Shown piece by piece: positions 4,532-23,763 of a DNA stretch of 23,946 nt. The notes beneath the pieces are model-generated. The model made no database searches. It worked only from the letters and a program-made list of their open reading frames with translations, and had not been told where the DNA came from. Position numbers and translations under genes: made by a program. The stretch comes from a virus (Duplodnaviria > Heunggongvirae > Uroviricota > Caudoviricetes). Each line of letters begins with the position of its first letter. Position 1 is the stretch's first letter. The DNA lies in the IMG/VR virus record IMGVR_UViG_2562617151_000005. The stretch is one strand, 5' to 3'.

Positions 4532-4589
4532 AAAAAGGGCGGCAGAGCAGTCACGGAGTAAAACTGATACCGCCAAACGTCACCAGAAA
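4532..4589 (-). ncRNA. dicF: DicF small RNA (ftsZ-targeting) with intrinsic terminator
   Basis: Minus-strand sequence TTTCTGGTGACGTTTGGCGGTATCAGTTTTACTCCGTGACTGCTCTGCCGCCCTTTTT matches my recollection of DicF; GC stem plus U-run at the 3' end; directly upstream of dicB. Confidence 0.8.
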
Positions 4590-5989: not shown

Positions 5990-6409
5990 CTATGATGCGT
6001 TTTGTGCTTTCTTTTTACGGATTTCTTCGTAGATCATATTGTAATACTGTTTTTTCTCTTCAAGAGTTTTTAATAATTTATCCGCTTCACTTTCTGGCAG
6101 TTCGTCTAAGAGATCTAAAAAAATACGTTGTCGTGGCGTTAGAACCCTTGTTTCATAACTGGAGGCTGTGTTCGTTGATGATGAAACGATACCATCCATC
6201 CATCCCCGGGGTAACCCAAAGGACTCTTCGATAATCTCCACCATATCATCAGCGATCCGTTTTTTTCCCTTTTTCCCCTCTGGGTACAACATTCTTGATA
6301 CATAAGAAGGCTCGCGCCCGATCTTTCTGGCCACGTTAACCGCTTTACCATCGCATTTCTCATCACGAATTTTGATGAGTTGCTGTCGTCTAAATTCATA
6401 TTTGTCCAT
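5990..6409 (-). CDS. Prophage immunity repressor candidate (HTH, CI-position, no S24 peptidase domain recognised)
   Basis: 139 aa; HTH-like GKAVNVARKIGREPSYVSRML; divergent from the Cro-like gene; no SD upstream of the ATG, consistent with a leaderless PRM-type transcript as in lambda cI. Confidence 0.7.
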   Translation of the reverse strand: MDKYEFRRQQLIKIRDEKCDGKAVNVARKIGREPSYVSRMLYPEGKKGKKRIADDMVEIIEESFGLPRGWMDGIVSSSTNTASSYETRVLTPRQRIFLDLLDELPESEADKLLKTLEEKKQYYNMIYEEIRKKKAQNAS

Positions 6410-6446
6410 AGGTAAATAATAGATGCGATTACCGCAAGGTAAACAA

Positions 6447-6485
6447 CCTGTGGGTATTGACTTTTGTTTACCTGTGGGTATTCTT
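6447..6485. promoter_or_regulatory. OR/PR-like region: direct repeats CCTGTGGGTATT (6447-6458, 6471-6482) with TTGACT -35 (6457-6462) and TATTCT -10 (6479-6484)
   Basis: Repeats share the TGGGTA half-site with the OL palindromes; also inverted repeat GGTAAACAA/TTGTTTACC; located between divergent repressor and cro-like starts; SD AAGGAG before ATG 6510. Confidence 0.5.
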
Positions 6486-6791: not shown

Positions 6792-7200
6792 ACACATCCG
6801 CATGGCGATGAATGTCTGGGCGCATCCGGACGGCGAAAAAGTGCCGGCTGCGAAAATTACCAAAGCGTATTTCGAGCTGGGAATGACGTTCCCGGAACTG
6901 TATGACGACAGCCATCCGGAAGCCCTGGCCCGTAATACCCAGAAAATTTTCCGTTGGCTGGATAAAGACACCCCTGATGCTGTTGAAAAAATGCAGGCTC
7001 TGTTACCGGCGATCGAAAAGGCGATGCCGCCTTTGCTGGTGGCCCGTATGCGCAGCCACAGTTCTGAATATTACCGTGAGATCGTCGAACGGAGGGATCG
7101 GCTGGTGAAGGATGTCGATGATTTTGTTGCGTCAGCGGTTGTTTTGTATGACCAGATGAATCGCGGCGGCCCGGCAGGGAATGCTGTGGTGATGCACTAA
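6775..7200 (+). CDS. YdaT-like protein (CII-position regulator)
   Basis: 141 aa beginning MKIKHEHI, which I recall as the YdaT N-terminus; overlaps the cro-like gene by 17 nt. Confidence 0.6.
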   Translation: MKIKHEHIRMAMNVWAHPDGEKVPAAKITKAYFELGMTFPELYDDSHPEALARNTQKIFRWLDKDTPDAVEKMQALLPAIEKAMPPLLVARMRSHSSEYYREIVERRDRLVKDVDDFVASAVVLYDQMNRGGPAGNAVVMH

Positions 7201-7207
7201 AAGCACG

Positions 7208-8182
7208 GTGTTCGGGGGTTTTATGAGCAGCAAGCTTCATGGTCTTGTCTGGGAAGGGTGCGCCTTCACCGGCATGATCTTATCCAGGGTGGCGGTTATG
7301 GCCCGTCTTGCAGACTACAGCAATGACGAGGGCGTGTCATGGCCTGCCATTGAAACTATCCGGCGTCAGATCGGTGCAAGAAGTGAATCCACAGTGAAAT
7401 CGGCTATTGCAGAACTGGCGAAAGAGGGCTGGCTGACGAAGGAAGAGCGTAAGGTCGGTGGGCGTAATGTAAGCAATATCTATCGGCTTAATGTGGAAAA
7501 ACTCGAAGCAGCTGCGGCGGCGCGTGAGTCATATAAACCGAAAAGAAAAATTAGCCCGGCAAAAAATGACCCGTTAACAGTTGACCCGTCAAATATTGCC
7601 CCCTCAACGGTTGACCCGTCAAATTTTGATGGATCAACTGTTGATAAAAAACTGCCGATTAGGGGGCCGATGATTGACCCCGATCCGTCAGTATTAAAAC
7701 CTGATCCGTCAGATAAAAGATCTTCTTGTCCGGACGCTTCGCAACCGGACCCGCAGACGGCTGAACAGGATTTTTTAACCCGACACCCTGACGCGGTTGT
7801 GTTCAGTGCGAAAAAACGCCAGTGGGGAAGTCAGGAAGATTTGGTGTGCGCACAGTGGATCTGGGGACGAATCGTGAGTCTTTACGAGCAGGCGGCCAGC
7901 TATGATGGCGAGATCACTAGACCGAAAGAACCCAACTGGACAGCATGGGCCAATGACGTTCGCACAATGCGGATGCTGGATGGCAGAACTCACAGACAAA
8001 TTTGTGAAATGTTTGGGCGTCTCCAGCGGGATTCGTTCTGGGTAAAAAACATCATGAGTCCGGCAAAACTCCGGGAAAAATGGGATGAACTGGTTATCCG
8101 CCTGGGGCGTTCGCCTGCGCAGCGTTGCGTGAATCACATTTCTGAACCGGACACTGAAATTCCGCCGGGCTTCAGGGGGTAA
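7208..8182 (+). CDS. Replication initiation protein (lambda O-like; N-terminal winged-helix, internal iteron-encoded repeat)
   Basis: 324 aa; N-terminal HTH-like region; peptide repeat TVDPSN encoded by DNA iterons; position after cro/cII-like genes. Confidence 0.7.
   Translation: MFGGFMSSKLHGLVWEGCAFTGMILSRVAVMARLADYSNDEGVSWPAIETIRRQIGARSESTVKSAIAELAKEGWLTKEERKVGGRNVSNIYRLNVEKLEAAAAARESYKPKRKISPAKNDPLTVDPSNIAPSTVDPSNFDGSTVDKKLPIRGPMIDPDPSVLKPDPSDKRSSCPDASQPDPQTAEQDFLTRHPDAVVFSAKKRQWGSQEDLVCAQWIWGRIVSLYEQAASYDGEITRPKEPNWTAWANDVRTMRMLDGRTHRQICEMFGRLQRDSFWVKNIMSPAKLREKWDELVIRLGRSPAQRCVNHISEPDTEIPPGFRG
7567..7714. repeat. Iteron cluster, candidate replication origin inside the O-like gene
   Basis: TGACCCGTCAAAT perfect at 7582-7594 and 7612-7624 (30-bp spacing), degenerate copies at 7567-7579, 7675-7691 and 7702-7714, with an A-rich stretch between; analogous to lambda ori inside O. 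Confidence 0.55.
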
Positions 8183-8326
8183 GTGTTAATTTCTGGTCAT
8201 GAGGTAATTTTCAGGAGGGCTTGTGGCAAAAGTTTTTACACAAGAAGAGCGGGAAAAAATTAAAGGGCAGGTTGTTGAACTCGTACGCCAGAGTGGGCGC
8301 GAGACGTTACGACAACTGGAAACTAA

Positions 8327-9522
<1,196 letters not shown>

Positions 9523-10036
9523 CTAATACTGGGGCAACAAGATATCTGATGAGCGTTCTGGCCAGAGAGCTGGTTGCCAGTGGCGATGTATACAACTCTG
9601 GTTACGGGTTATTCCCGTCTGAACAGGCGCGTAAGGACTGGCAAAATGCCCGTAAAAAGCTCTCAAGGGCAAAGCTGAAGAAACCATCTGCGGTTGATCC
9701 GGACCTTATCTGGTCATTACCTGACGGAGAAATACGTCGCTACGACAGGCGTCAGAACATAATCTGTCGCGAGTGCCGGAAGAGTGAAGTTATGCAGCGC
9801 ATATTGTCGTTTTATCAGGGTGATGTTCGGTATTTATTGAAGTGACGAGATTAAAGTGCATTAGTTCAGATGCAAATTGACATTTTGTGGCACAGGGTAG
9901 AGCTAGCGTGGTTGTCCGCTTTGTGCCAATAGCGGACATTGCTGGCTCATGGTATGTTAGTTTAAGGAGGCAGGTTATGCCCTGTATTTCGCTGTGGTAT
10001 AATAGTTGCGCAATTGATACAAGGGAGCGTTACATC

Positions 10037-10999
10037 GTGAAAATTGTTTTCGAGGTTAATGGAAAGAAAGTTCCACTAAAATCTTTAAAATACATAAGCA
10101 AAAAAGATCAACTCGAAGTAATGAAAAACTGGTTCTTTGAAAACTTTGAAGATCCGGCAAATGCTTGTCCGTATGAAAGTAGAGAAGGTGGCTATGCTTA
10201 CATATATGGCGGGCCGTATGATGCGAGCGAAGAACTACAATCCATCTTCGGTCAATATGTTAAATCTGAGTATATTGAGGAATTAGTAGATGAATTACAA
10301 ACACAATGTTTTGACTGGTCTGGAAACTCAAATAATATAGATGATTGGTACGATGATGATATCTACGACGCTGTAACGTCTTCCGGTAATCCGTATTTAA
10401 AATTCATTGATAATATCGATAAAATAAAAAAACTTGCAAAAGATAAAACTGAACAACAGCAAAAAAACCACTTGCTTAGTTTGCTCTACACGAATGTTAT
10501 TACAGCTTTGGAAACGCTTTATGTTGAGCTATTCATTAATTCTATAGAGAAAGATGATGTCTACATAGCCAATTGTATAGAAAAAGGTAAGACTGAATTT
10601 AAAGTAAGCAAAGATATTGCTGCGTTGCCTTTCAAGGGTGAACCCATCGAGAAAATTAGGGGAGAGCTAATCAGGTCAATCAAGGAACACTTGATCAGTG
10701 CAAGCTGGCATAGCACTAAAAAGGTAATCGACCGCTATGAAGCTACATTCGATATAAAAGTACAAAAAGACTGTCCGATAGAAGCTATTGAATTGGCAAC
10801 CCTCAATCGAAATCACTTAGTGCATCGTGGTGGAAAGGATAAAGAAGGGAACCTCGTAGTGATTACAGACCAGGATCTTGAAACGCTGATTGAAAATGCA
10901 TCGAACCTGGCAATTATGCTCTACAACAGTTTAAATGTAGCAACGAATAAAACCACCATTTTGCAACCAGATGACAAACCGTTCATTCATGAATTTTAA
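10037..10999 (+). CDS. Hypothetical protein A of AT-rich cassette (about 320 aa) with C-terminal HEPN-like Rx4H motif
   Basis: Long ORF; proposed GTG start at 10037 preceded by AGGGA; TTGACA at 9878-9883 upstream; motif LNRNHLVHRGG near C-terminus; markedly AT-rich by eye. Confidence 0.6.
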   Translation: MKIVFEVNGKKVPLKSLKYISKKDQLEVMKNWFFENFEDPANACPYESREGGYAYIYGGPYDASEELQSIFGQYVKSEYIEELVDELQTQCFDWSGNSNNIDDWYDDDIYDAVTSSGNPYLKFIDNIDKIKKLAKDKTEQQQKNHLLSLLYTNVITALETLYVELFINSIEKDDVYIANCIEKGKTEFKVSKDIAALPFKGEPIEKIRGELIRSIKEHLISASWHSTKKVIDRYEATFDIKVQKDCPIEAIELATLNRNHLVHRGGKDKEGNLVVITDQDLETLIENASNLAIMLYNSLNVATNKTTILQPDDKPFIHEF

Positions 11000-11014
11000 T
11001 AGCGCAGGTCATAC

Positions 11015-12016
11015 ATGGATATTCGCACACGAAAGACAAAATTTTTAGAGTCGTTAGATTCAACTGAAGTGATACGCAAAGCAGTAAGTCTCGCTATAGA
11101 TTGCATTATTGATAATCATAATAGTAATGAAGATACCCCCTTAGTTATTACCAGCTATGATGATCTCTGTAGAATCCAGGTGCTAAATTATGTACAGGAG
11201 TTTTGCGAAGCTGCATTCCCTGATATGGATGAATATTACTTTAGTCCTAACATACTTCGCATCAACGGCAAGACTAGTGAAGAAGCTTGTATTAACTTAA
11301 TTAAACTCTTAAGAAGTACAAAAGGCATGCTATTCTGGTCCGATGCCCCATCGTGGTTCGCTAGCCTCCCCGACGGATTATTCCATGTTGTTAACATTGA
11401 TCAAAAAATCGTTACTCGCGGCCTTAATAAGAAAAACTCTAAGCCGACAATAATCAATAAAGATTACAGTGTAGATACACTACTATCAGAGCTATTTTTG
11501 AATGGCGCACACATGGAGCAACCCAACGTACACAACGTTTCTGAGGGAAACATGAAGTTCTATGATGAATGCCATGCTGGATTAATCAGACCAATACCCG
11601 CTCCAATAGGCGCGTCATACGATGAAGAGATCACAATTAATTCTCCAGATTGGCAAAAGCTCGCGTGTGTAGCTTTACGCCGCTATCAGTCGAAGGAATG
11701 TCATGACGGAATGCAATGGGATACAACCGATCATGGTTGGACTGATGTAATCGCGTATCCATTCGTCGAAGAAATACAATCAATGGATAATAGTGGTTAT
11801 CGACAATGTTTAGTTGGGCTGGTCACAATAAACAATTCAAATGCAAATTCTCCGTACCTATCTACCGTTTGGATACATCTATTTTATCGCAGGAGAGGGT
11901 TATTAAGTAAGTTATGGCCAAAATTACAAGAGTTATATGGAAGTAACTTCGAAATTGAGCGACCTAATGAAAATATGAAAGCATTTCTGAAAAGTGCGAA
12001 ACACGCAGATTACTAA
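11015..12016 (+). CDS. Hypothetical protein B of AT-rich cassette (333 aa)
   Basis: ORF 15 nt downstream of gene A on the same strand; AT-rich; no Walker A or other recognisable motif. Confidence 0.6.
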   Translation: MDIRTRKTKFLESLDSTEVIRKAVSLAIDCIIDNHNSNEDTPLVITSYDDLCRIQVLNYVQEFCEAAFPDMDEYYFSPNILRINGKTSEEACINLIKLLRSTKGMLFWSDAPSWFASLPDGLFHVVNIDQKIVTRGLNKKNSKPTIINKDYSVDTLLSELFLNGAHMEQPNVHNVSEGNMKFYDECHAGLIRPIPAPIGASYDEEITINSPDWQKLACVALRRYQSKECHDGMQWDTTDHGWTDVIAYPFVEEIQSMDNSGYRQCLVGLVTINNSNANSPYLSTVWIHLFYRRRGLLSKLWPKLQELYGSNFEIERPNENMKAFLKSAKHADY

Positions 12017-12422: not shown

Positions 12423-12476
12423 TTTTATATTGGCGAGGTGACGGGAGTTAAGTAGAATTGCTGCGGGTGCTTGAGG

Positions 12477-12512
12477 CTATCTGCCTCAGGCATGAACACC
12501 AAAGGCAGATAG
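12477..12512 (+). promoter_or_regulatory. Perfect 10-bp inverted repeat (CTATCTGCCT ... AGGCAGATAG, 16-nt loop) in the hok leader
   Basis: Seen directly; hok-family mRNAs are known to carry extensive leader structure. Confidence 0.4.
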
Positions 12513-12633
12513 AGAAAAGCCCCAGTTAACATTATGCGTCCTGCAAGACGTTTAACATTAATCTGAGGCTCAATCTATGAACGGCAAATCTAGGTTAGCC
12601 TCTTACGTGCCGAAAGGCAAGGAGAAGCAGGCT

Positions 12634-12789
12634 ATGAAGCAGCAAAAGGCGATGTTAATCGCCCTGATCGTCATCTGTTTAACCGTCATAATGACGGCAC
12701 TGGTAACGAGGAAAGACCTCTGCGAGGTACGAATCCGAACCGGCCAGACGGAGGTCGCTGTCTTCACAGCTTACGAACCTGAGGAGTAA
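12634..12789 (+). CDS. hok: Hok/Gef-family type I toxin (HokD/RelF-like)
   Basis: 51 aa MKQQKAMLIALIVICLTVIMTALVTRKDLCEVRIRTGQTEVAVFTAYEPEE; SD AAGGAG 9 nt upstream. Confidence 0.85.
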   Translation: MKQQKAMLIALIVICLTVIMTALVTRKDLCEVRIRTGQTEVAVFTAYEPEE

Positions 12790-17163: not shown

Positions 17164-17239
17164 GGCCCTTTAGCTCAGTGGTGAGAGCGAGCGACTCATA
17201 ATCGCCAGGTCGCTGGTTCAAATCCAGCAAGGGCCACCA
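17164..17239 (+). tRNA. tRNA with CAU anticodon, Ile2-like (ileX/ileZ type) rather than Met
   Basis: Hand-folded cloverleaf: acceptor GGCCCTT/AAGGGCC, D-stem GCTC/GAGC, anticodon loop CTCATAA, T-loop TTCAAAT, encoded CCA; resembles E. coli ileX from memory. Confidence 0.8.
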
Positions 17240-17246
17240 TCACATA

Positions 17247-17323
17247 CCGCCATTAGCTCATCAGGAAAGAGCGCCAGCCTTCGAAGCTGGTTGCGCGGAG
17301 TTCGGGTCCCCGAAGGCGGTCCA
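17247..17323 (+). tRNA. tRNA-Arg (UCG) with atypical T-arm
   Basis: Hand-fold: acceptor CCGCCAT/AAGGCGG (one A-A mismatch), D-stem GCTC/GAGC, anticodon stem CCAGC/GCTGG, loop CTTCGAA, T-loop TTCGGGT with one T-stem mismatch, encoded CCA. Confidence 0.55.
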
Positions 17324-17336
17324 TTATCTGTATCCT

Positions 17337-17413
17337 GCGTTGTTAGCTCAGCCGGACAGAGCAATTGCCTTCTAAGCAATCGGTCACTGGTTCGAATCCA
17401 GTACAACGCGCCA
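17337..17413 (+). tRNA. tRNA-Arg (UCU)
   Basis: Acceptor GCGTTGT/ACAACGC, D-stem GCTC/GAGC, anticodon loop CTTCTAA, T-loop TTCGAAT, encoded CCA. Confidence 0.85.
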
Positions 17414-17458: not shown

Positions 17459-17672
17459 CTCACAATTCAGGCGGTTGACTGTTGTCTGGTTTGCGGGGAG
17501 TTTGTTAAAAGAAACTGGCATGGTGAATCCCCCTGTGCGGAGGGGCAATCAGCGAGTAGGTATATGGGATAATCGCGGATTCAGGTGCTGGTACTGAATT
17601 CACCGGGAGGCACCCGGCACCATGCAATGGCACATAGCGCCACTCTCCAGCCCCTCTCCGGAGGGGCTTTTC
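17459..17672 (+). other. Structured module A (about 215 bp), candidate sRNA or regulatory leader ending in an intrinsic terminator
   Basis: Shares blocks with module B: CTCACAATTCAG, TTGAC, TTTGTTAAAA, CATGGTGAATCCCCCTGNGCGGAGGGGC, CACCGGGAGGCACCCGGCACCATG, and terminator GCCCCTC-TCCG-GAGGGGC plus T-run. Confidence 0.4.
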
Positions 17673-17926
17673 TGTGCCGGATACATCACAGTTTCTGGAA
17701 CCTTAGGTACTACAGTATCAGTCAGGGTGCTATATTTTCAGATGTGATGAAAGCCTGTCAGCAGGCAGGGCGTATCGGAAATGACCCAGTAGAGAAAACG
17801 TTGACTCAGATACCGGTGCTGAGTTACCGGGAAACCGGCATCACATGACCGCTATCCTTCCAGGCCCATCCGCTCCGGTGGGCCTTTTTACTGCAGAAAA
17901 CAGGTTCCCCGTTAAATGCTATGTTG

Positions 17927-18160
17927 CTCACAATTCAGTAAGTTGACAGTTGCCTGTCAGACTGGGCATTTGTTAAAAAAATTTCGCATGGTGAATCCCC
18001 CTGAGCGGAGGGGCGACTGGTGACGGTATAATCTCTGATTATCAAAACGAGAATGACGCGGGTTTAGTGGCACCGGGCTGAACTCACCGGGAGGCACCCG
18101 GCACCATGTGCATGATGATACAGATACGCGGCTTTAGCCCCTCTCCGGAGGGGCTTTCTT
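17927..18160 (+). other. Structured module B, paralogue of module A with a TTGACA -35-like hexamer
   Basis: Same conserved blocks in the same order as module A; identical terminator hairpin at 18137-18154 followed by T-rich tract. Confidence 0.4.
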
Positions 18161-18166
18161 ATGGAC

Positions 18167-19844: not shown

Positions 19845-20465
19845 ATGAAAGATCAAGATGTTAGGTTCGCGGTGCATCATAAGCTTTTGAAAGAATCGCA
19901 TTTAGATCCAGACTGCCTTGTGGTCGATGAATTTTCCATATCCCTTGGCGCCAGTAGAGCAGACATTGCTGTAATAAATGGTGTTATACACGGGTACGAG
20001 CTCAAAAGTGAATATGACTCTTTGGAGCGTTTGCCTCTTCAAATCAAGCATTATTCTTCTGTAATGGACAAGGTTACTCTTGTCGTAGCTGAGAAACATC
20101 TTGAGGGAGCATTAAAGTTAATCCCAGGTTGGTGGGGCGTTAAAACGGTTTCTGTTGGGCCAAAAGGCGCCATTCTTATAAAGCACATGCGTGGAGAAAA
20201 GCTTAATCGAAACCATGACACATTGATGCTCGCTCAATTGCTTTGGAAAGATGAATGTATCGACGTACTTGAACGATGGGGCTATTCCAAAGGAATCAAA
20301 AGCAAGCCCCGATTTGAGTTATGGAATATTATTGCGGAAAATATTCCAATAGCGAATCTCAGGCTTGAAGTCAGAACAGCCTTAAAGAAACGCGTAGGCT
20401 GGAAAGTTAAGGCTTGGCAGGCTGAGTCTGCGCCAACCAATAAAGCTGTCTCACGACTAACGTAA
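19845..20465 (+). CDS. Hypothetical protein (206 aa) with PD-(D/E)xK nuclease-like motif
   Basis: SD AAGGAG and TATAAT-like -10 upstream; motif ...RADIAVINGVIHGYELKSE... with D-x11-ELK spacing typical of restriction-endonuclease-fold enzymes; AT-rich. Confidence 0.6.
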   Translation: MKDQDVRFAVHHKLLKESHLDPDCLVVDEFSISLGASRADIAVINGVIHGYELKSEYDSLERLPLQIKHYSSVMDKVTLVVAEKHLEGALKLIPGWWGVKTVSVGPKGAILIKHMRGEKLNRNHDTLMLAQLLWKDECIDVLERWGYSKGIKSKPRFELWNIIAENIPIANLRLEVRTALKKRVGWKVKAWQAESAPTNKAVSRLT

Positions 20466-21474
20466 TATGGTGCGTATGTGCAACTTTACGCCATTCTTTA
20501 GAGCCGCCAGATTTGTTAGCGCCTAATGATCTTTGGTAAATGTAATCATCCCCCCAACTAAATTTGGAACCAAAGACTTGATACTCTGGCGAACTAACAA
20601 GGGTAGTACATAAGTTTTTAGTTTGGCCCCATCCATTTCCTTTAACTGCGGTACCTTTTACAAAGATCCATGAGGTATCGTTCGAATATCTCACTGAGAC
20701 ATACTGAGACATGAAGCGTGGGTCTACGCTCGTAATGGTAGAGCTAGCGGTGGGATAATCACTAAAACTTGGCGTTCTTCCATTGCTAAAATTCTGTACT
20801 ACGTACATCCAAAGATCGTATTCATGGCGCGGAATATGATGAACTTGATGTTGCGGTATCCCTGCCTGTGATGCTGGGTATGCGGTTGAAGATAAAATCA
20901 AGTTTCTCCACGGAGCTTGGCCTGATAATGTGTTGACCATGCTTAATGCTTGTTGTTTTAAACTATCAGTTGCGTTTTGAATATCTCCAAAATCAATGAT
21001 TACATCAATTAAACTAGGATGAATATTTAAGTGGTTAACCAGACTTGTGAATTGGTGCCATGTCTGGGGGGTGATAGATATAGCGAGCCCATTGATTAAG
21101 TTGCGTTGAACAGCATGTATATAGTTTGTTGAATATGCGGGAGAAACAACAGGGATAATTTCCTTACCATTTACTCTAGCATCTTGGATACACATATCTA
21201 GAGGATGATGGCGGCTCGAACCATGTTTATCTAAATATTTAACATCCAGCAAAACAGGACGATTGGCTTTCCAGGATGCCGCAAGGTTAATACCGAAGTC
21301 AGATAAGTAAGAACTCAAACTCTTCTTGTAGCATTCGTTTTCATAATCCCAGTCTATGTCTGGAATGGTAATGATCGGAGTAAAACCAGAGAGCGTAGTT
21401 TGATCTAAAAGCATCAGAGATTCATATTCAGCAGGCTTCCATTTCAGCTGTGGATAATATTGATGTTGACTCAT
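20407..21474 (-). CDS. Hypothetical protein (355 aa), convergent partner of the nuclease-like gene
   Basis: Long AT-rich ORF; 3' end overlaps 19845-20465 by 59 nt on the opposite strand; no family recognised. Confidence 0.6.
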   Translation of the reverse strand: MSQHQYYPQLKWKPAEYESLMLLDQTTLSGFTPIITIPDIDWDYENECYKKSLSSYLSDFGINLAASWKANRPVLLDVKYLDKHGSSRHHPLDMCIQDARVNGKEIIPVVSPAYSTNYIHAVQRNLINGLAISITPQTWHQFTSLVNHLNIHPSLIDVIIDFGDIQNATDSLKQQALSMVNTLSGQAPWRNLILSSTAYPASQAGIPQHQVHHIPRHEYDLWMYVVQNFSNGRTPSFSDYPTASSTITSVDPRFMSQYVSVRYSNDTSWIFVKGTAVKGNGWGQTKNLCTTLVSSPEYQVFGSKFSWGDDYIYQRSLGANKSGGSKEWRKVAHTHHITLVVRQLYWLAQTQPAKP

Positions 21475-21885: not shown

Positions 21886-22434
21886 ATGAAGGTTAATAAA
21901 AAGAGGCTTGCCGAAATTTTCAACGTGGACCCGCGGACGATTGAACGCTGGCAGTCTCAGGGACTCCCTTGCGCCTCCAAAGGTAGTAAGGGCATTGAAT
22001 CTGTATTTGATACTGCCATGGCAATTCAGTGGTATGCGCAGAGGGAAACTGATATCGAAAACGAAAAGCTCCGCAAAGAACTGGACGATTTGCGTGCGGC
22101 AGCGGAGTCAGATTTACAACCCGGCACCATTGACTATGAACGCTACCGGCTCACAAAAGCGCAGGCAGATGCGCAGGAACTGAAAAATGCCCGTGAAGAC
22201 GGAGTAGTGCTGGAAACTGAACTGTTTACCTTCATTCTGCAACGTGTGGCACAGGAGATTTCGGGGATACTTGTGCGTGTGCCGTTGACATTACAGCGTA
22301 AATATCCGGACATTTCACCATCACACCTTGATGTGGTGAAAACTGAAATCGCGAAAGCCTCCAATGTTGCAGCTAAGGCCGGTGAAAACGTGGGCGGGTG
22401 GATCGATGATTTCAGACGCGCAGAAGGCAGCTAA
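21886..22434 (+). CDS. nu1: Terminase small subunit (lambda Nu1-like)
   Basis: 182 aa [28 protein letters not shown]...[47 protein letters not shown], closely parallel to lambda Nu1. Confidence 0.85.
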
Positions 22435-23179
22435 TGCAGCCGGTGCGATAGCTACAGGGCTTTTATCTCTCATTATTCCTGTTCCACTGACGACAGTTCA
22501 GTGGGCCAATAAACATTATTACCTTCCTAAAGAGTCGTCTTATACCCCCGGGCGGTGGGAAACACTGCCGTTTCAGGTTGGCATCATGAACTGTATGGGC
22601 AACGATCTGATTCGCACGGTTATGCGTGGCTGGACGATTAAGGGCAAGCCCGCCAGTGGTCGGGCCGTATTATCTCAGGAACAGGACGGCATTAAATCGC
22701 ACACCCACAGCGCCAGCGCATCCAGTACGGATTTGGGGACGAAAACCACATCGTCGTTTGATTACGGAACCAAATCCACGAATAACACCGGGGCGCATAC
22801 CCATAGTATTAGCGGGACCGCAAATAGTGCCGGTGCGCACCAACACAAGAGTTCCGGTGCATTTGGTGGCACGAACACGAGCATTTTCCCTAATGGTTAT
22901 ACCGCGATTTCAAATCTAAGCGCGGGGATTATGAGCACAACAAGCGGTAGTGGCCAGACTCGTAATGCAGGGAAGACATCATCAGATGGTGCTCATACCC
23001 ACTCGCTGTCCGGCACTGCTGCAAGCGCAGGCGCACATGCACATACTGTCGGTATTGGTGCTCATACGCACTCCGTTGCGATTGGTTCACATGGACACAC
23101 CATCACCGTTAACGCTGCTGGTAACGCGGAAAACACCGTCAAAAACATCGCATTTAACTATATTGTGAGGCTTGCATAA
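22406..23179 (+). pseudogene. Chimeric ORF: terminase large subunit (gpA-like) N-terminal 70-odd aa fused to a side-tail-fibre C-terminal His-rich repeat region
   Basis: From MISDAQ the N-terminus matches lambda gpA ([41 protein letters not shown]) up to about nt 22620, then switches to GAHTHS/GAHQH repeats; same frame throughout; start overlaps Nu1 end as in lambda. Confidence 0.6.
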
Positions 23180-23763
23180 TGGCATTCAGAATGAGTGAAC
23201 AACCACGGACCATAAAAATTTATAATCTGCTGGCCGGAACTAATGAATTTATTGGTGAAGGTGATGCATATATTCCGCCTCATACAGGTCTGCCAGCAAA
23301 CAGTACCGATATTGCACCACCAGATATTCCTGCTGGCTTTGTGGCTGTTTTCAACAGTGATGAGGCATCGTGGCATCTCGTTGAAGACCATCGGGGTAAA
23401 ACGGTTTATGACGTAGCGTCAGGGGACGAGTTATTTATTTCTGAACTCGGTCCGTTACCGGAAAATGTTACCTGGTTATCGCCGGAAGGGGAGTTTCAGA
23501 AGTGGAACGGCACAGCCTGGGTGAAGGATACGGAAGCAGAAAAACTGTTCCGGATCCGGGAGGCGGAAGAAACAAAAAACAACCTGATGCAGGTAGCCAG
23601 TGAGCATATTGCGCCGCTTCAGGATGCTGCAGATCTGGAAATTGCAACGGAGGAAGAAACCTCATTGCTGGAAGCCTGGAAAAAGTATCGGGTGTTGCTG
23701 AACCGTGTTGATACATCAACTGCACCTGATATTGAGTGGCCTACGAACCCTGTCAGGGAGTAA
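23179..23763 (+). CDS. tfa: Tail fibre assembly protein (Tfa)
   Basis: 194 aa [39 protein letters not shown]... recognised as the lambdoid Tfa family; TAATG overlap with upstream stop. Confidence 0.8.

What the first reader, a model, noticed from the sequence alone, without database searches (positions are those of the whole stretch)
7567..7714. Iteron array inside the O-like gene: probable prophage origin of replication
Two perfect copies of TGACCCGTCAAAT spaced 30 bp apart plus three degenerate copies, followed by an A-rich tract, lie within the coding sequence of the replication initiator and encode a peptide repeat (TVDPSN). This mirrors the lambda arrangement where ori iterons lie inside O.
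Basis: partly seen in the sequence, partly recalled or inferred. Interest (0 to 1): 0.5.

Follow-up and report, generated by a model that had tools for sequence, protein, structure and literature searches.

The report
Replication origin inside prophage initiator gene
A run of short repeated DNA motifs in the middle of a dormant virus's replication-initiator gene is very probably that virus's origin of replication, built on the plan of phage lambda but with different repeats; this is a well-supported but expected feature rather than a surprise.

Summary
An exact 15-mer, GTTGACCCGTCAAAT, occurs at 7580 and 7610. It lies in a 15-bp-period array of 5-6 palindromic units (7566-7655). Two GATCCGTCAG boxes follow at 7682 and 7703.

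All of this encodes the linker (aa 115-164) of a 319-aa O-like initiator (7223-8182). Its C-terminal domain is homologous to lambda O (35% identity, E 4e-26). Its N-terminal domain is a different HTH (Pfam HTH_36).

Comparison with about 140 homologues shows selection on the DNA itself:
- Serine codons in the array are TCA or TCT in 83% of cases, against 19% in the N-domain.
- A GATC-containing core, GGGGATCCGTCAGTAA, is at least 90% identical at the nucleotide level across genera.
- Copy number changes in 15-bp steps.
- Genes with an unrelated N-domain but the same C-domain carry a different array, with a 23-bp period, at the same place.

This is the lambda pattern: an origin inside O, with iterons that go with the DNA-binding domain. 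Neither binding nor origin activity has been tested, the AT-rich tract is weak, and the prophage is cryptic. I class it as a new member of a known kind, of moderate interest.

The parts
6416..6484 (.). Divergent promoter-like sites between the racR-like repressor gene (5990-6409, -) and the ydaS-like gene. An exact 13-mer, ACCTGTGGGTATT, is repeated at 6446 and 6470 and is operator-like. The rightward promoter would drive ydaS-like, ydaT-like and O-like transcription through the array.
7223..8182 (+). O-like replication initiator gene (319 aa). An alternative GTG start lies at 7208.
   Evidence: PHROG 391 at E 6e-115. The NCBI annotation of the 99.7%-identical gene in L001 uses the same start.
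7223..7522 (+). N-terminal helix-turn-helix DNA-binding domain (about aa 1-100).
   Evidence: Pfam HTH_36 at aa 25-71, 27.9 bits against a cut-off of 25. Matches to many PHROG replication-initiator families.
7566..7655 (+). 15-bp-period array of six units: ATGACCCGTTAACAG, TTGACCCGTCAAATA, TTGCCCCCTCAACGG, TTGACCCGTCAAATT, TTGATGGATCAACTG, TTGATAAAAAACTGC. These are the candidate iterons. The 30-bp super-period alternates strong and weak units.
7580..7594 (+). Perfect 15-mer GTTGACCCGTCAAAT, copy 1.
7610..7624 (+). Perfect 15-mer GTTGACCCGTCAAAT, copy 2.
7674..7714 (+). Family-wide conserved block TTGACCCCGATCCGTCAGTATTAAAACCTGATCCGTCAGAT. It contains two GATCCGTCAG boxes (7682-7691 and 7703-7712) that are 21 bp apart.
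7688..7727 (.). Least stable 40-bp stretch of the gene (68% A+T), overlapping three GATC sites (7682, 7703, 7719). This is the candidate unwinding region.
7715..8128 (+). C-terminal module homologous to the lambda O C-domain. The mosaic junction with genes that carry other N-domains falls at about 7713-7715.
8129..8179 (+). C-terminal tail VNHISEPDTEIPPGFRG, which matches the extreme C-terminus of E. coli DnaT.
8223..9845 (+). Downstream DUF977/Ren-like gene, split by an IS5 element (8329-9522, with CTAA target duplication). No P-like or DnaC-like loader gene follows the initiator.

Best explanation
The repeats at 7566-7714 are the cis-acting core of the prophage's origin of replication. They lie inside the linker-coding part of its own O-type initiator gene, as in phage lambda.

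Proposed mechanism:
1. After derepression, the rightward promoter at about 6457-6484 transcribes the ydaS-like, ydaT-like and O-like genes, and so transcribes through the origin. (Inferred.)
2. The N-terminal helix-turn-helix domain of the initiator binds the palindromic 15-bp units (TGAC-NN-GTCA, or equally GTCA-N5-TGAC) and the two GATCCGTCAG boxes, probably as dimers, to form an O-some-like nucleoprotein complex. (Inferred from architecture and co-variation; not shown.)
3. The adjacent low-stability, GATC-rich stretch at about 7688-7727 opens. (Inferred; this is the weakest step.)
4. The lambda-O-like C-terminal domain, with its DnaT-like IPPGFRG tail, brings in the host helicase, DnaB-DnaC, without a phage P protein. 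(Inferred from the tail-partner correlation.)

What is shown directly is the repeat anatomy, the homology of the gene to O-type initiators, nucleotide-level selection on the repeats, and their co-inheritance with the DNA-binding domain.
For: (1) Gene identity. PHROG 391 'replication initiation O-like' matches at E 6e-115. The C-domain is 35% identical to lambda O over 148 aa, E 4e-26. The N-domain matches HTH_36.

(2) Position. The array encodes aa 115-164, between the two domains. Lambda's annotated iterons encode about aa 117-145 of O. In Providencia homologues, the 36 nt that follow the GATC block are 29/36 identical to lambda 39159-39194, which lies immediately right of lambda's AT-rich tract.

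(3) Selection acts on the DNA, not only on the peptide.
- Of 911 Ser codons in the linkers of 60 homologues, 83% are TCA or TCT, against 19% in the N-domain and 31% in the C-domain.
- In X-x-S units, Ser is TCA in 82% of cases, against 11% elsewhere.
- In S-K-S-D units the codons are TCA 91/96, AAA 67/67 and TCT 84/96.
- In the block, D is GAT in 33/33 genes, P is CCG in 91% and V is GTA in 97%. The mean top-codon frequency at conserved N-domain residues is 0.54.
- GGGGATCCGTCAGTAA is at least 90% conserved in 57 genes from Escherichia to Providencia, and GATC is present in 57/57.

(4) The repeats travel with the DNA-binding domain.
- mEp460-type genes share the window's C-domain (86-92% nt identity from window position 7715 on). 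They have an unrelated N-domain and, at the same place, five repeats of CCATCRGKTCAAAATG. Their 23-bp period is not a multiple of 3, and an AT-rich stretch follows.
- Sub-clades of the N-domain have different unit consensus sequences, and one clade has a 33-bp period.
- The invariant 16-mer occurs in at least 120 IMG/VR contigs. In all 77 assessable of the 80 fetched, it lies in frame downstream of this N-domain.

(5) The array behaves like an iteron array. Copy number is 3-9 and changes in 15-bp steps between near-identical genes.

(6) The family is the only replication function in the early region of viable phages such as SfII and SfIV.

(7) Members with lambda-like W-rich tails are always followed by a lambda-P homologue (8/8). 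Members with GFRG tails never are (0/114).
Against: - No experiment on this family was found in the searchable literature, so binding and origin firing are inferences.
- The A+T-rich element is weak. The best 40-bp window is 68% A+T, and similar values occur elsewhere in the gene. Lambda has a clear tract of about 40 bp.
- A 15-bp spacing, about 1.4 helical turns, is unusual for iterons, which are usually about two turns apart.
- Only two units in this window are perfect.
- Homologues are not phylogenetically independent, and repeats within a gene share codons by descent. The codon statistics therefore overstate the number of independent observations.
- Strong nucleotide conservation at a mosaic junction could partly reflect recombination.
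- The prophage is cryptic, so this copy may never fire. It has an IS5 insertion just downstream, and its Nu1 gene sits directly next to the tail-fibre genes.
Confidence: 0.75

Rival explanations
1. The repeats are only a by-product of a repetitive, disordered Pro/Ser/Asp-rich peptide linker (TVDPSN, SDxSK) between the two protein domains. On this view the DNA itself has no cis-acting role.
For: The period is 15 bp, exactly 5 codons, and the repeats are always in frame. The encoded segment is low-complexity and lies between two folded domains. Copy number changes preserve the reading frame.
Against: Synonymous positions are fixed, with position-specific TCA, TCT, AAA, GAT, CCG and GTA codons. 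Meanwhile the middle codon of each unit changes amino acid freely. The equivalent array in mEp460-type genes has a 23-bp period, so the same DNA repeat is read in three frames. Lambda's proven iterons lie at the same place in O.
Confidence: 0.04
2. The repeats are binding sites for the initiator, but they act in regulation rather than as the site of unwinding. Possible roles are autorepression of O synthesis, titration, or handcuffing-type copy control. The actual start of replication would lie elsewhere in the prophage.
For: The case for binding (co-variation with the N-domain) does not by itself say what binding does. The unwinding element is weak.
Against: GAYCCGTCA occurs nowhere else in the window, so there is no second iteron cluster. 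The position is equivalent to the lambda ori, including a segment homologous to the sequence flanking lambda's AT-rich tract. In the low-GC Gilliamella homologues, the array and GATC box are followed directly by a long pure A+T stretch.
Confidence: 0.1
3. The nucleotide conservation reflects some other DNA-level function. Candidates are a preferred recombination junction for module exchange between lambdoid phages, or a site for a host factor (SeqA/Dam at GATC, or DnaA). The initiator itself would not bind there.
For: The conserved block ends exactly at the mosaic junction, about 7713-7715. GATC is invariant (57/57) and this is the densest GATC cluster in the window, with 4 sites in 91 bp. A dam gene lies directly downstream in 75 of 146 family members.
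Against: The block is absent from mEp460-type genes, which have the same C-domain and the same junction. It is found only with this N-domain, which argues for a partner encoded by that domain. DnaA boxes are not enriched, with 20 found against 22 expected. A role for Dam or SeqA at the origin is compatible with the main explanation and does not compete with it.
Confidence: 0.08

Closest known systems
Phage lambda ori-lambda within gene O (O-some; also the Stx-phage variants with six iterons, PMC7466680)
   Same: The initiator has two domains, and the origin is encoded in the interdomain linker. The C-domain is homologous (35% identity). The gene sits in the rightward early operon behind cro/cII-like genes. 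The repeats are palindromic. Some family members pair with a lambda-P homologue. A segment next to the block is 29/36 identical to lambda DNA right of the AT-rich tract.
   Different: The N-domain is Pfam HTH_36, not Phage_rep_O. The array has 5-6 head-to-tail 15-bp units (30-bp super-period), whereas lambda has four 18-nt annotated iteron sites 20-24 bp apart start to start. There is no clear 40-bp AT-rich tract. The core contains invariant GATC. This prophage has no P gene. The C-terminal tail resembles DnaT rather than lambda O.
mEp460 / HannyBb / PhiR42_1-type O-like initiators (annotated 'primosomal protein I' or 'replication initiation O-like')
   Same: The C-terminal module and tail are the same (86% nt identity from window position 7715 on). 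The gene order is the same, with the initiator followed by a DUF977-type gene. Each has a repeat array at the same place.
   Different: The N-domain is unrelated. The repeats are different: five copies of CCATCRGKTCAAAATG with a 23-bp period, followed by a clearer AT-rich stretch.
SfII / SfIV / Klebsiella-phage O proteins (same family, clade B)
   Same: N-domain 66-67% identical. The layout is the same: 4-7 copies of TCTGACnCnTCAAAA, an A-run, and then the block TTTTSACCCGTCAGAATCTGGnGGGGATCCGTCAGTAAA...GATCCRTCAGATAAAAAA.
   Different: The conserved part of the unit is the unit boundary (TCAAAATCTGA), not the centre. The downstream genes are YfdN/PerC-like and often dam.
Dam/SeqA-controlled origins (E. 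coli oriC; P1 oriR with its GATC-containing heptamers next to iterons). This comparison rests on my own knowledge.
   Same: A cluster of GATC sites lies directly beside the iterons, and 21 bp separates two of them.
   Different: There is no evidence here that methylation matters. The initiator is unrelated to DnaA or P1 RepA.
E. coli DnaT (primosomal protein I)
   Same: The last 17-21 residues are nearly identical: VNHISEPDTEIPPGFRG against VNTVSEPDSQIPPGFRG.
   Different: The similarity is confined to the tail. A profile of the C-domain finds no solved structure, and the NCBIfam score is 16.7 against a cut-off of 201. The protein is not a DnaT orthologue.

Membership tests
Lambdoid O-type initiator with an intragenic iteron origin | C-terminal domain homologous to lambda O | tested here: met
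   BLASTP gives 35% identity over 148 aa, E 4e-26. PHROG 391 matches at E 6e-115.
Lambdoid O-type initiator with an intragenic iteron origin | N-terminal domain of the lambda O type (Pfam PF04492, Phage_rep_O) | tested here: not met
   Lambda O matches PF04492 at E 6e-36. The window protein matches HTH_36 instead and has no PF04492 hit.
Lambdoid O-type initiator with an intragenic iteron origin | Cluster of repeated, dyad-symmetric sites in the linker-coding part of the initiator gene | tested here: met
   Five to six 15-bp units plus two GATCCGTCAG boxes at aa 115-164. The lambda iterons lie at aa 117-145.
Lambdoid O-type initiator with an intragenic iteron origin | Repeat sequence specific to, and co-inherited with, the N-terminal DNA-binding domain | tested here: met
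   The array differs where the N-domain is unrelated but the C-domain is the same. Consensus sequences are clade-specific. The 16-mer occurs only with this N-domain, in 77 of 77 assessable cases.
Lambdoid O-type initiator with an intragenic iteron origin | A+T-rich unwinding tract next to the iterons | tested here: inconclusive
   The least stable 40-mer of the gene is 7688-7727 (68% A+T), but several other stretches are similar. The tract is clear only in the Gilliamella homologues.
Lambdoid O-type initiator with an intragenic iteron origin | Partner helicase-loader gene (lambda P) directly downstream | tested here: not met
   The next gene is DUF977/Ren-like and is split by IS5. P homologues follow only the family members with W-rich tails, 8 of 8.
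Lambdoid O-type initiator with an intragenic iteron origin | Initiator binds the repeats | not testable with these tools
   This needs EMSA or footprinting. A single-sequence structure model was unusable, with mean pLDDT 38.
Lambdoid O-type initiator with an intragenic iteron origin | The fragment supports initiator-dependent replication | not testable with these tools
   The only hint is a 16-kb circular 'plasmid' record consisting of the early region of such a prophage. In that assembly the initiator gene is frameshifted.
Dam/SeqA-regulated origin (oriC, P1 oriR type) | Cluster of GATC sites at the origin | tested here: met
   There are 4 GATC sites in 91 bp, the densest cluster in the window. 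GATC is present in the block in 57 of 57 homologues, and the Asp codon there is always GAT.
Dam/SeqA-regulated origin (oriC, P1 oriR type) | Initiation depends on, or is sequestered by, the methylation state | not testable with these tools
   The only indirect evidence is a dam gene within 1.3 kb downstream in 75 of 146 unique family members.
DnaT (primosomal protein I) | Full-length similarity to DnaT (NCBIfam NF002770) | tested here: not met
   The score is 16.7 bits against a cut-off of 201, and only model positions 159-179 match. The PDB hits cover only the last 21 residues.

The most novel reading that the evidence does not exclude
This initiator family may define a distinct origin design, widespread in Enterobacterales prophages, with three unusual features:
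- a filament-like array of head-to-tail 15-bp palindromic sites;
- an invariant GATC-containing core whose firing is gated by Dam methylation or SeqA, with many members carrying a translationally coupled dam gene;
- helicase recruitment without P, through a portable C-terminal 'IPxGFRG' peptide shared with host DnaT.
If so, the tail would act as a short linear motif that specifies the loader partner, and it would point to the still unknown DnaT-to-DnaB/DnaC link.
Probability: 0.2. Interest if true: 0.6.

Novelty: new member of a known kind. Interest (0 to 1): 0.35.

Why it matters
It pins down, to about 150 bp, the likely origin of a replication module that occurs in a large share of E. coli genomes. 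DNA matching the gene was found in 3265 of 5426 complete genomes, and 1515 of them hold at least 80% of it. The module is also present in serotype-converting Shigella phages.

It gives a clean comparative signature for finding intragenic origins elsewhere: synonymous-site conservation, together with co-variation between the repeats and the DNA-binding domain.

The side observations turn two open questions into direct experiments. The questions are how P-less lambdoid phages load DnaB, and what the conserved C-terminal tail of DnaT contacts. The observations are the perfect correlation between tail type and partner gene, the DnaT-like tail, and the invariant GATC core with an adjacent dam gene.

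Tried and rejected
- Rac oriJ / YdaU. K-12 Rac has the same ydaS-ydaT context, but its YdaU is a DUF1376 protein and not this family, so oriJ is not a precedent.
- Structure prediction. A single-sequence AlphaFold2 model of the initiator had mean pLDDT 38 and was unusable, so I ran no fold search.
- Solved structures. A profile of the C-domain against all PDB sequences found nothing. The DnaT similarity is limited to the tail.
- DnaA boxes. 20 found against 22 expected in the window, with nothing notable at the array.
- RNA families. Rfam has no match in 7200-8200.
- Literature. Searches for the motif strings, and for iterons or O proteins of these phages, found no description of this origin. 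The DnaT papers I read do not assign a function to the terminal peptide.
- A natural mini-replicon. NZ_CP148542.1 is a 16-kb circle holding only the early region. In that assembly the ydaT-like and initiator genes are frameshifted, so I do not count it as evidence.
- Which register is bound. I could not decide between TGAC-NN-GTCA (unit centre) and GTCA-N5-TGAC (unit boundary). Clade A conserves the centre and clade B conserves the boundary.

Full report
**Observation**

Window 7560-7730 contains the motif as described. TGACCCGTCAAAT occurs exactly at 7582 and 7612. The identity extends to a 15-mer, GTTGACCCGTCAAAT, at 7580-7594 and 7610-7624. Such close exact repeats occur on average 0.05 times per dinucleotide-preserving shuffle of the window.

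Read in 15-bp register, the units are ATGACCCGTTAACAG, TTGACCCGTCAAATA, TTGCCCCCTCAACGG, TTGACCCGTCAAATT, TTGATGGATCAACTG and TTGATAAAAAACTGC, spanning 7566-7655. Tandem Repeats Finder reports periods of 15 and 30. Each unit is palindromic, so the array as a whole is self-complementary. The repeat finder reports 33-nt arms at 7576-7608 and 7610-7642. As single-stranded DNA the region folds far better than shuffles, z = -3.96.

Two further boxes, CCCGATCCGTCAG and CCTGATCCGTCAG, lie 21 bp apart at 7679 and 7700. The core GAYCCGTCA occurs four times in the 23.9-kb window, all here and all on the + strand. Four GATC sites (7632, 7682, 7703, 7719) form the densest GATC cluster of the window.

The 'A-rich tract' of the finding is modest. 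It consists of an A6 run at 7645-7650 and a 68% A+T stretch at 7688-7727, which is the least stable 40-mer of the gene.

**The gene and its context**

The repeats lie in frame in ORF 7223-8182 (319 aa) and encode aa 115-164, including TVDPSN twice. The protein matches PHROG 391, 'replication initiation O-like', end to end at E 6e-115. Its N-terminus matches Pfam HTH_36. Its C-terminal 148 aa are 35% identical to lambda O, E 4e-26. Lambda O's own N-domain belongs to a different Pfam family, Phage_rep_O.

Upstream lie a racR-like repressor gene, divergent promoter-like sites with an operator-like repeated 13-mer (6446 and 6470), and ydaS-like and ydaT-like genes. Downstream lies a DUF977/Ren-like gene split by IS5, which spans 8329-9522. 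There is no P-like or DnaC-like gene.

The element is a lambdoid prophage, next to potC/potD in a 99.7%-identical E. coli locus. Here it is cryptic: the Nu1 gene is followed directly by tail-fibre genes. DNA matching the gene occurs in 3265 of 5426 complete E. coli genomes, and 1515 of them hold at least 80% of it.

**Comparative evidence**

I fetched 67 loci encoding the N-domain from other species, plus named phages such as SfII, SfIV and a Klebsiella phage.

All complete genes share one layout:
- the N-domain, about 95 aa;
- a 15-bp (5-codon) tandem array;
- a short A-run;
- a conserved block, consensus tttT.ACCCg.CAGAATCTGG.GGGGATCCGTCAGTAA..TCAA.....GATCCA.CAG.

Longest runs of phased units are mostly 4-6 and reach 9. 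The window has 5. Near-identical genes differ by 15, 45 or 90 bp in the array.

The selection acts on nucleotides:
- Ser codons in the linker are TCA or TCT in 83% of 911 cases, against 19% in the N-domain and 31% in the C-domain.
- In X-x-S units, Ser is TCA in 82% of cases, against 11% elsewhere.
- In S-K-S-D units the codons are TCA 91/96, AAA 67/67 and TCT 84/96, while the neighbouring codon varies freely.
- In the block, Asp is GAT in 33/33 dereplicated genes, Pro is CCG in 91% and Val is the rare GTA in 97%. At conserved N-domain residues the mean top-codon frequency is 0.54.
- GATC is present in the block in 57 of 57 genes.

The exact 16-mer GGGGATCCGTCAGTAA occurs in at least 120 IMG/VR contigs. 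In all 77 assessable of the 80 fetched, it lies in frame downstream of this same N-domain.

**Co-variation with the DNA-binding domain**

Many E. coli prophages and phages (mEp460, HannyBb, PhiR42_1) match only query positions 506/508-975, which is window 7713/7715 onward, at 86-92% identity. Their N-domain is unrelated.

At the equivalent place they carry five repeats of CCATCRGKTCAAAATG, spaced 23, 23, 23 and 24 bp, followed by an A+T-rich stretch. That period is not a multiple of three, so the repeat cannot be explained as a peptide repeat.

Within the family, sub-clades of the N-domain have different unit consensus sequences:
- Clade A, including the window, has TTGASSSSTCAA with variable spacers.
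- Clade B has TCAAAATCTGA with a variable centre.
- A divergent clade has a 33-bp period and CCACAAG boxes.

So three unrelated or diverged DNA-binding domains (lambda, mEp460-type and this one) each bring their own repeat array to the same position, in front of homologous C-domains. Lambda's annotated iterons lie at aa 117-145 of O. In Providencia homologues, the 36 nt after the block are 29/36 identical to lambda 39159-39194, just right of lambda's AT-rich tract. The array plus block therefore occupies the place of lambda's iterons plus AT-rich tract.

**Mechanism**

The best-supported reading is a lambda-type origin. The initiator's N-domain binds the palindromic units and the boxes, the adjacent low-stability GATC-rich stretch opens, and the C-domain recruits the helicase. 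Established knowledge of lambda (summarised in PMC7466680) provides the model: iterons and an AT-rich tract in the middle of O, an O-some, and transcriptional activation from pR. None of these steps is shown here for this family.

For helicase recruitment the family gives a clear pattern:
- Of 146 unique initiators, the 8 with W-rich lambda-like tails are all followed by a Phage_lambda_P homologue.
- The 114 with GF(R/K)G-type tails never are. They are followed instead by dam, PerC/YfdN-like genes or, in 4 cases, DnaC-like genes.

The window's tail, VNHISEPDTEIPPGFRG, nearly equals the C-terminus of E. coli DnaT. The similarity does not extend beyond the tail. The papers I read leave open both the function of that tail and the DnaT-to-DnaB/DnaC link. 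I therefore infer, without proof, that the tail is the handle for a DnaC-type loader, here the host's.

**Rivals**

A pure peptide-linker explanation is contradicted by the synonymous-site data and by the 23-bp array. A regulatory-only role for initiator binding cannot be excluded. However, there is no second cluster of the motif in the window. A recombination-junction or host-factor site is possible for the GATC block, but the block is absent from genes that share the junction and the C-domain yet have another N-domain. DnaA boxes are not enriched.

**Novelty**

I found no description of these repeats in the searchable literature. The principle, however, is textbook lambda biology, and the gene family is already labelled O-like. 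I therefore class it as a new member of a known kind.

The unusual details are worth a note but remain hypotheses. They are the 15-bp head-to-tail palindromic units, the invariant GATC core with a dam gene within 1.3 kb downstream in 75 of 146 members, and the DnaT-like tail in P-less modules.

**Verdict**

I put about 0.75 on the region being the origin core. Interest is moderate to low, at 0.35.

Noticed in passing
window 8129-8179; loci L011-L160: The C-terminal tail of the initiator predicts its partner gene. W-rich lambda-like tails are always followed by a lambda-P homologue (8/8). GFRG-type tails, which nearly match the DnaT C-terminus, never are (0/114). These tails are followed instead by dam, PerC/YfdN-like or DnaC-like genes.
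   Followed up: partly
L024 3352-4686, L028 3388-4638, L029 3358-4257, L050 3382-4560; SfII (L008 3520-4173): A Dam-type N6-adenine methyltransferase gene lies within 1.3 kb downstream of the initiator in 75 of 146 unique family members. It often overlaps the initiator's stop codon by 4 nt. This fits the invariant GATC in the origin block.
   Followed up: partly
window 6446-6458 and 6470-6482: An exact 13-mer, ACCTGTGGGTATT, is repeated 24 bp apart over the divergent promoter-like sites between the racR-like repressor gene and the ydaS-like gene. These are probably operators.
   Followed up: no
window 8329-9522: An IS5 element with a CTAA target duplication is inserted in the DUF977/Ren-like gene about 150 bp downstream of the initiator's stop codon. 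It is likely polar on the downstream early genes.
   Followed up: partly
window 21886-23763: The terminase small-subunit gene (Nu1) is followed directly by tail-fibre and tail-fibre-assembly genes. The head and tail genes are therefore deleted and the prophage is cryptic.
   Followed up: partly
window 19845-21474: A 'Beta protein' gene (PADLOC PD-Lambda-2_C / beta, minus strand) lies next to a gene that matches the PADLOC 'cll' model. This is a candidate anti-phage defence pair inside the prophage. Relatives carry a beta-family gene interrupted by IS1 (L001).
   Followed up: no
window 9887-12016: Two adjacent ORFs of 370 and 333 aa lie after the IS5 element. There is only a weak, sub-threshold HEPN/RES-NTD1 hit and no PADLOC match. 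They could be moron or defence cargo in the nin-region position.
   Followed up: no
window 4537-4588 (-), 12465-12639, 17164-17410, 17489-18166, 23522-23720: Rfam hits in the window: DicF sRNA, the sok antitoxin RNA of a hok/sok locus, three tRNAs, two STnc100 copies and IS009.
   Followed up: no
L064 and L072 (E. coli), match at 2501-2734: The first 79 aa of a clade-B initiator are fused in frame to an unrelated 455-aa ORF. This deletion removes the array, and it resembles the O-terminase fusion I recall for e14 oweE (from memory, not checked).
   Followed up: no
L079 (NZ_CP148542.1, 15,977 bp, circular): A 'plasmid' record consists only of the immunity, replication, nin, Q and lysis region of a prophage with this initiator, which makes it lambda-dv-like. 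In the assembly the ydaT-like and initiator genes are frameshifted, so it may be an artefact or an escape-replication product.
   Followed up: partly
L078 1160-1195 (lambda 39159-39194) against L063: The lambda sequence just right of the ori AT-rich tract (TTCGTCAGAGAATTCTGGCGAATCCTCTGACCAGCC) is 29/36 identical to the start of the C-module in Providencia homologues. This suggests shared ancestry of that part of the origin.
   Followed up: partly
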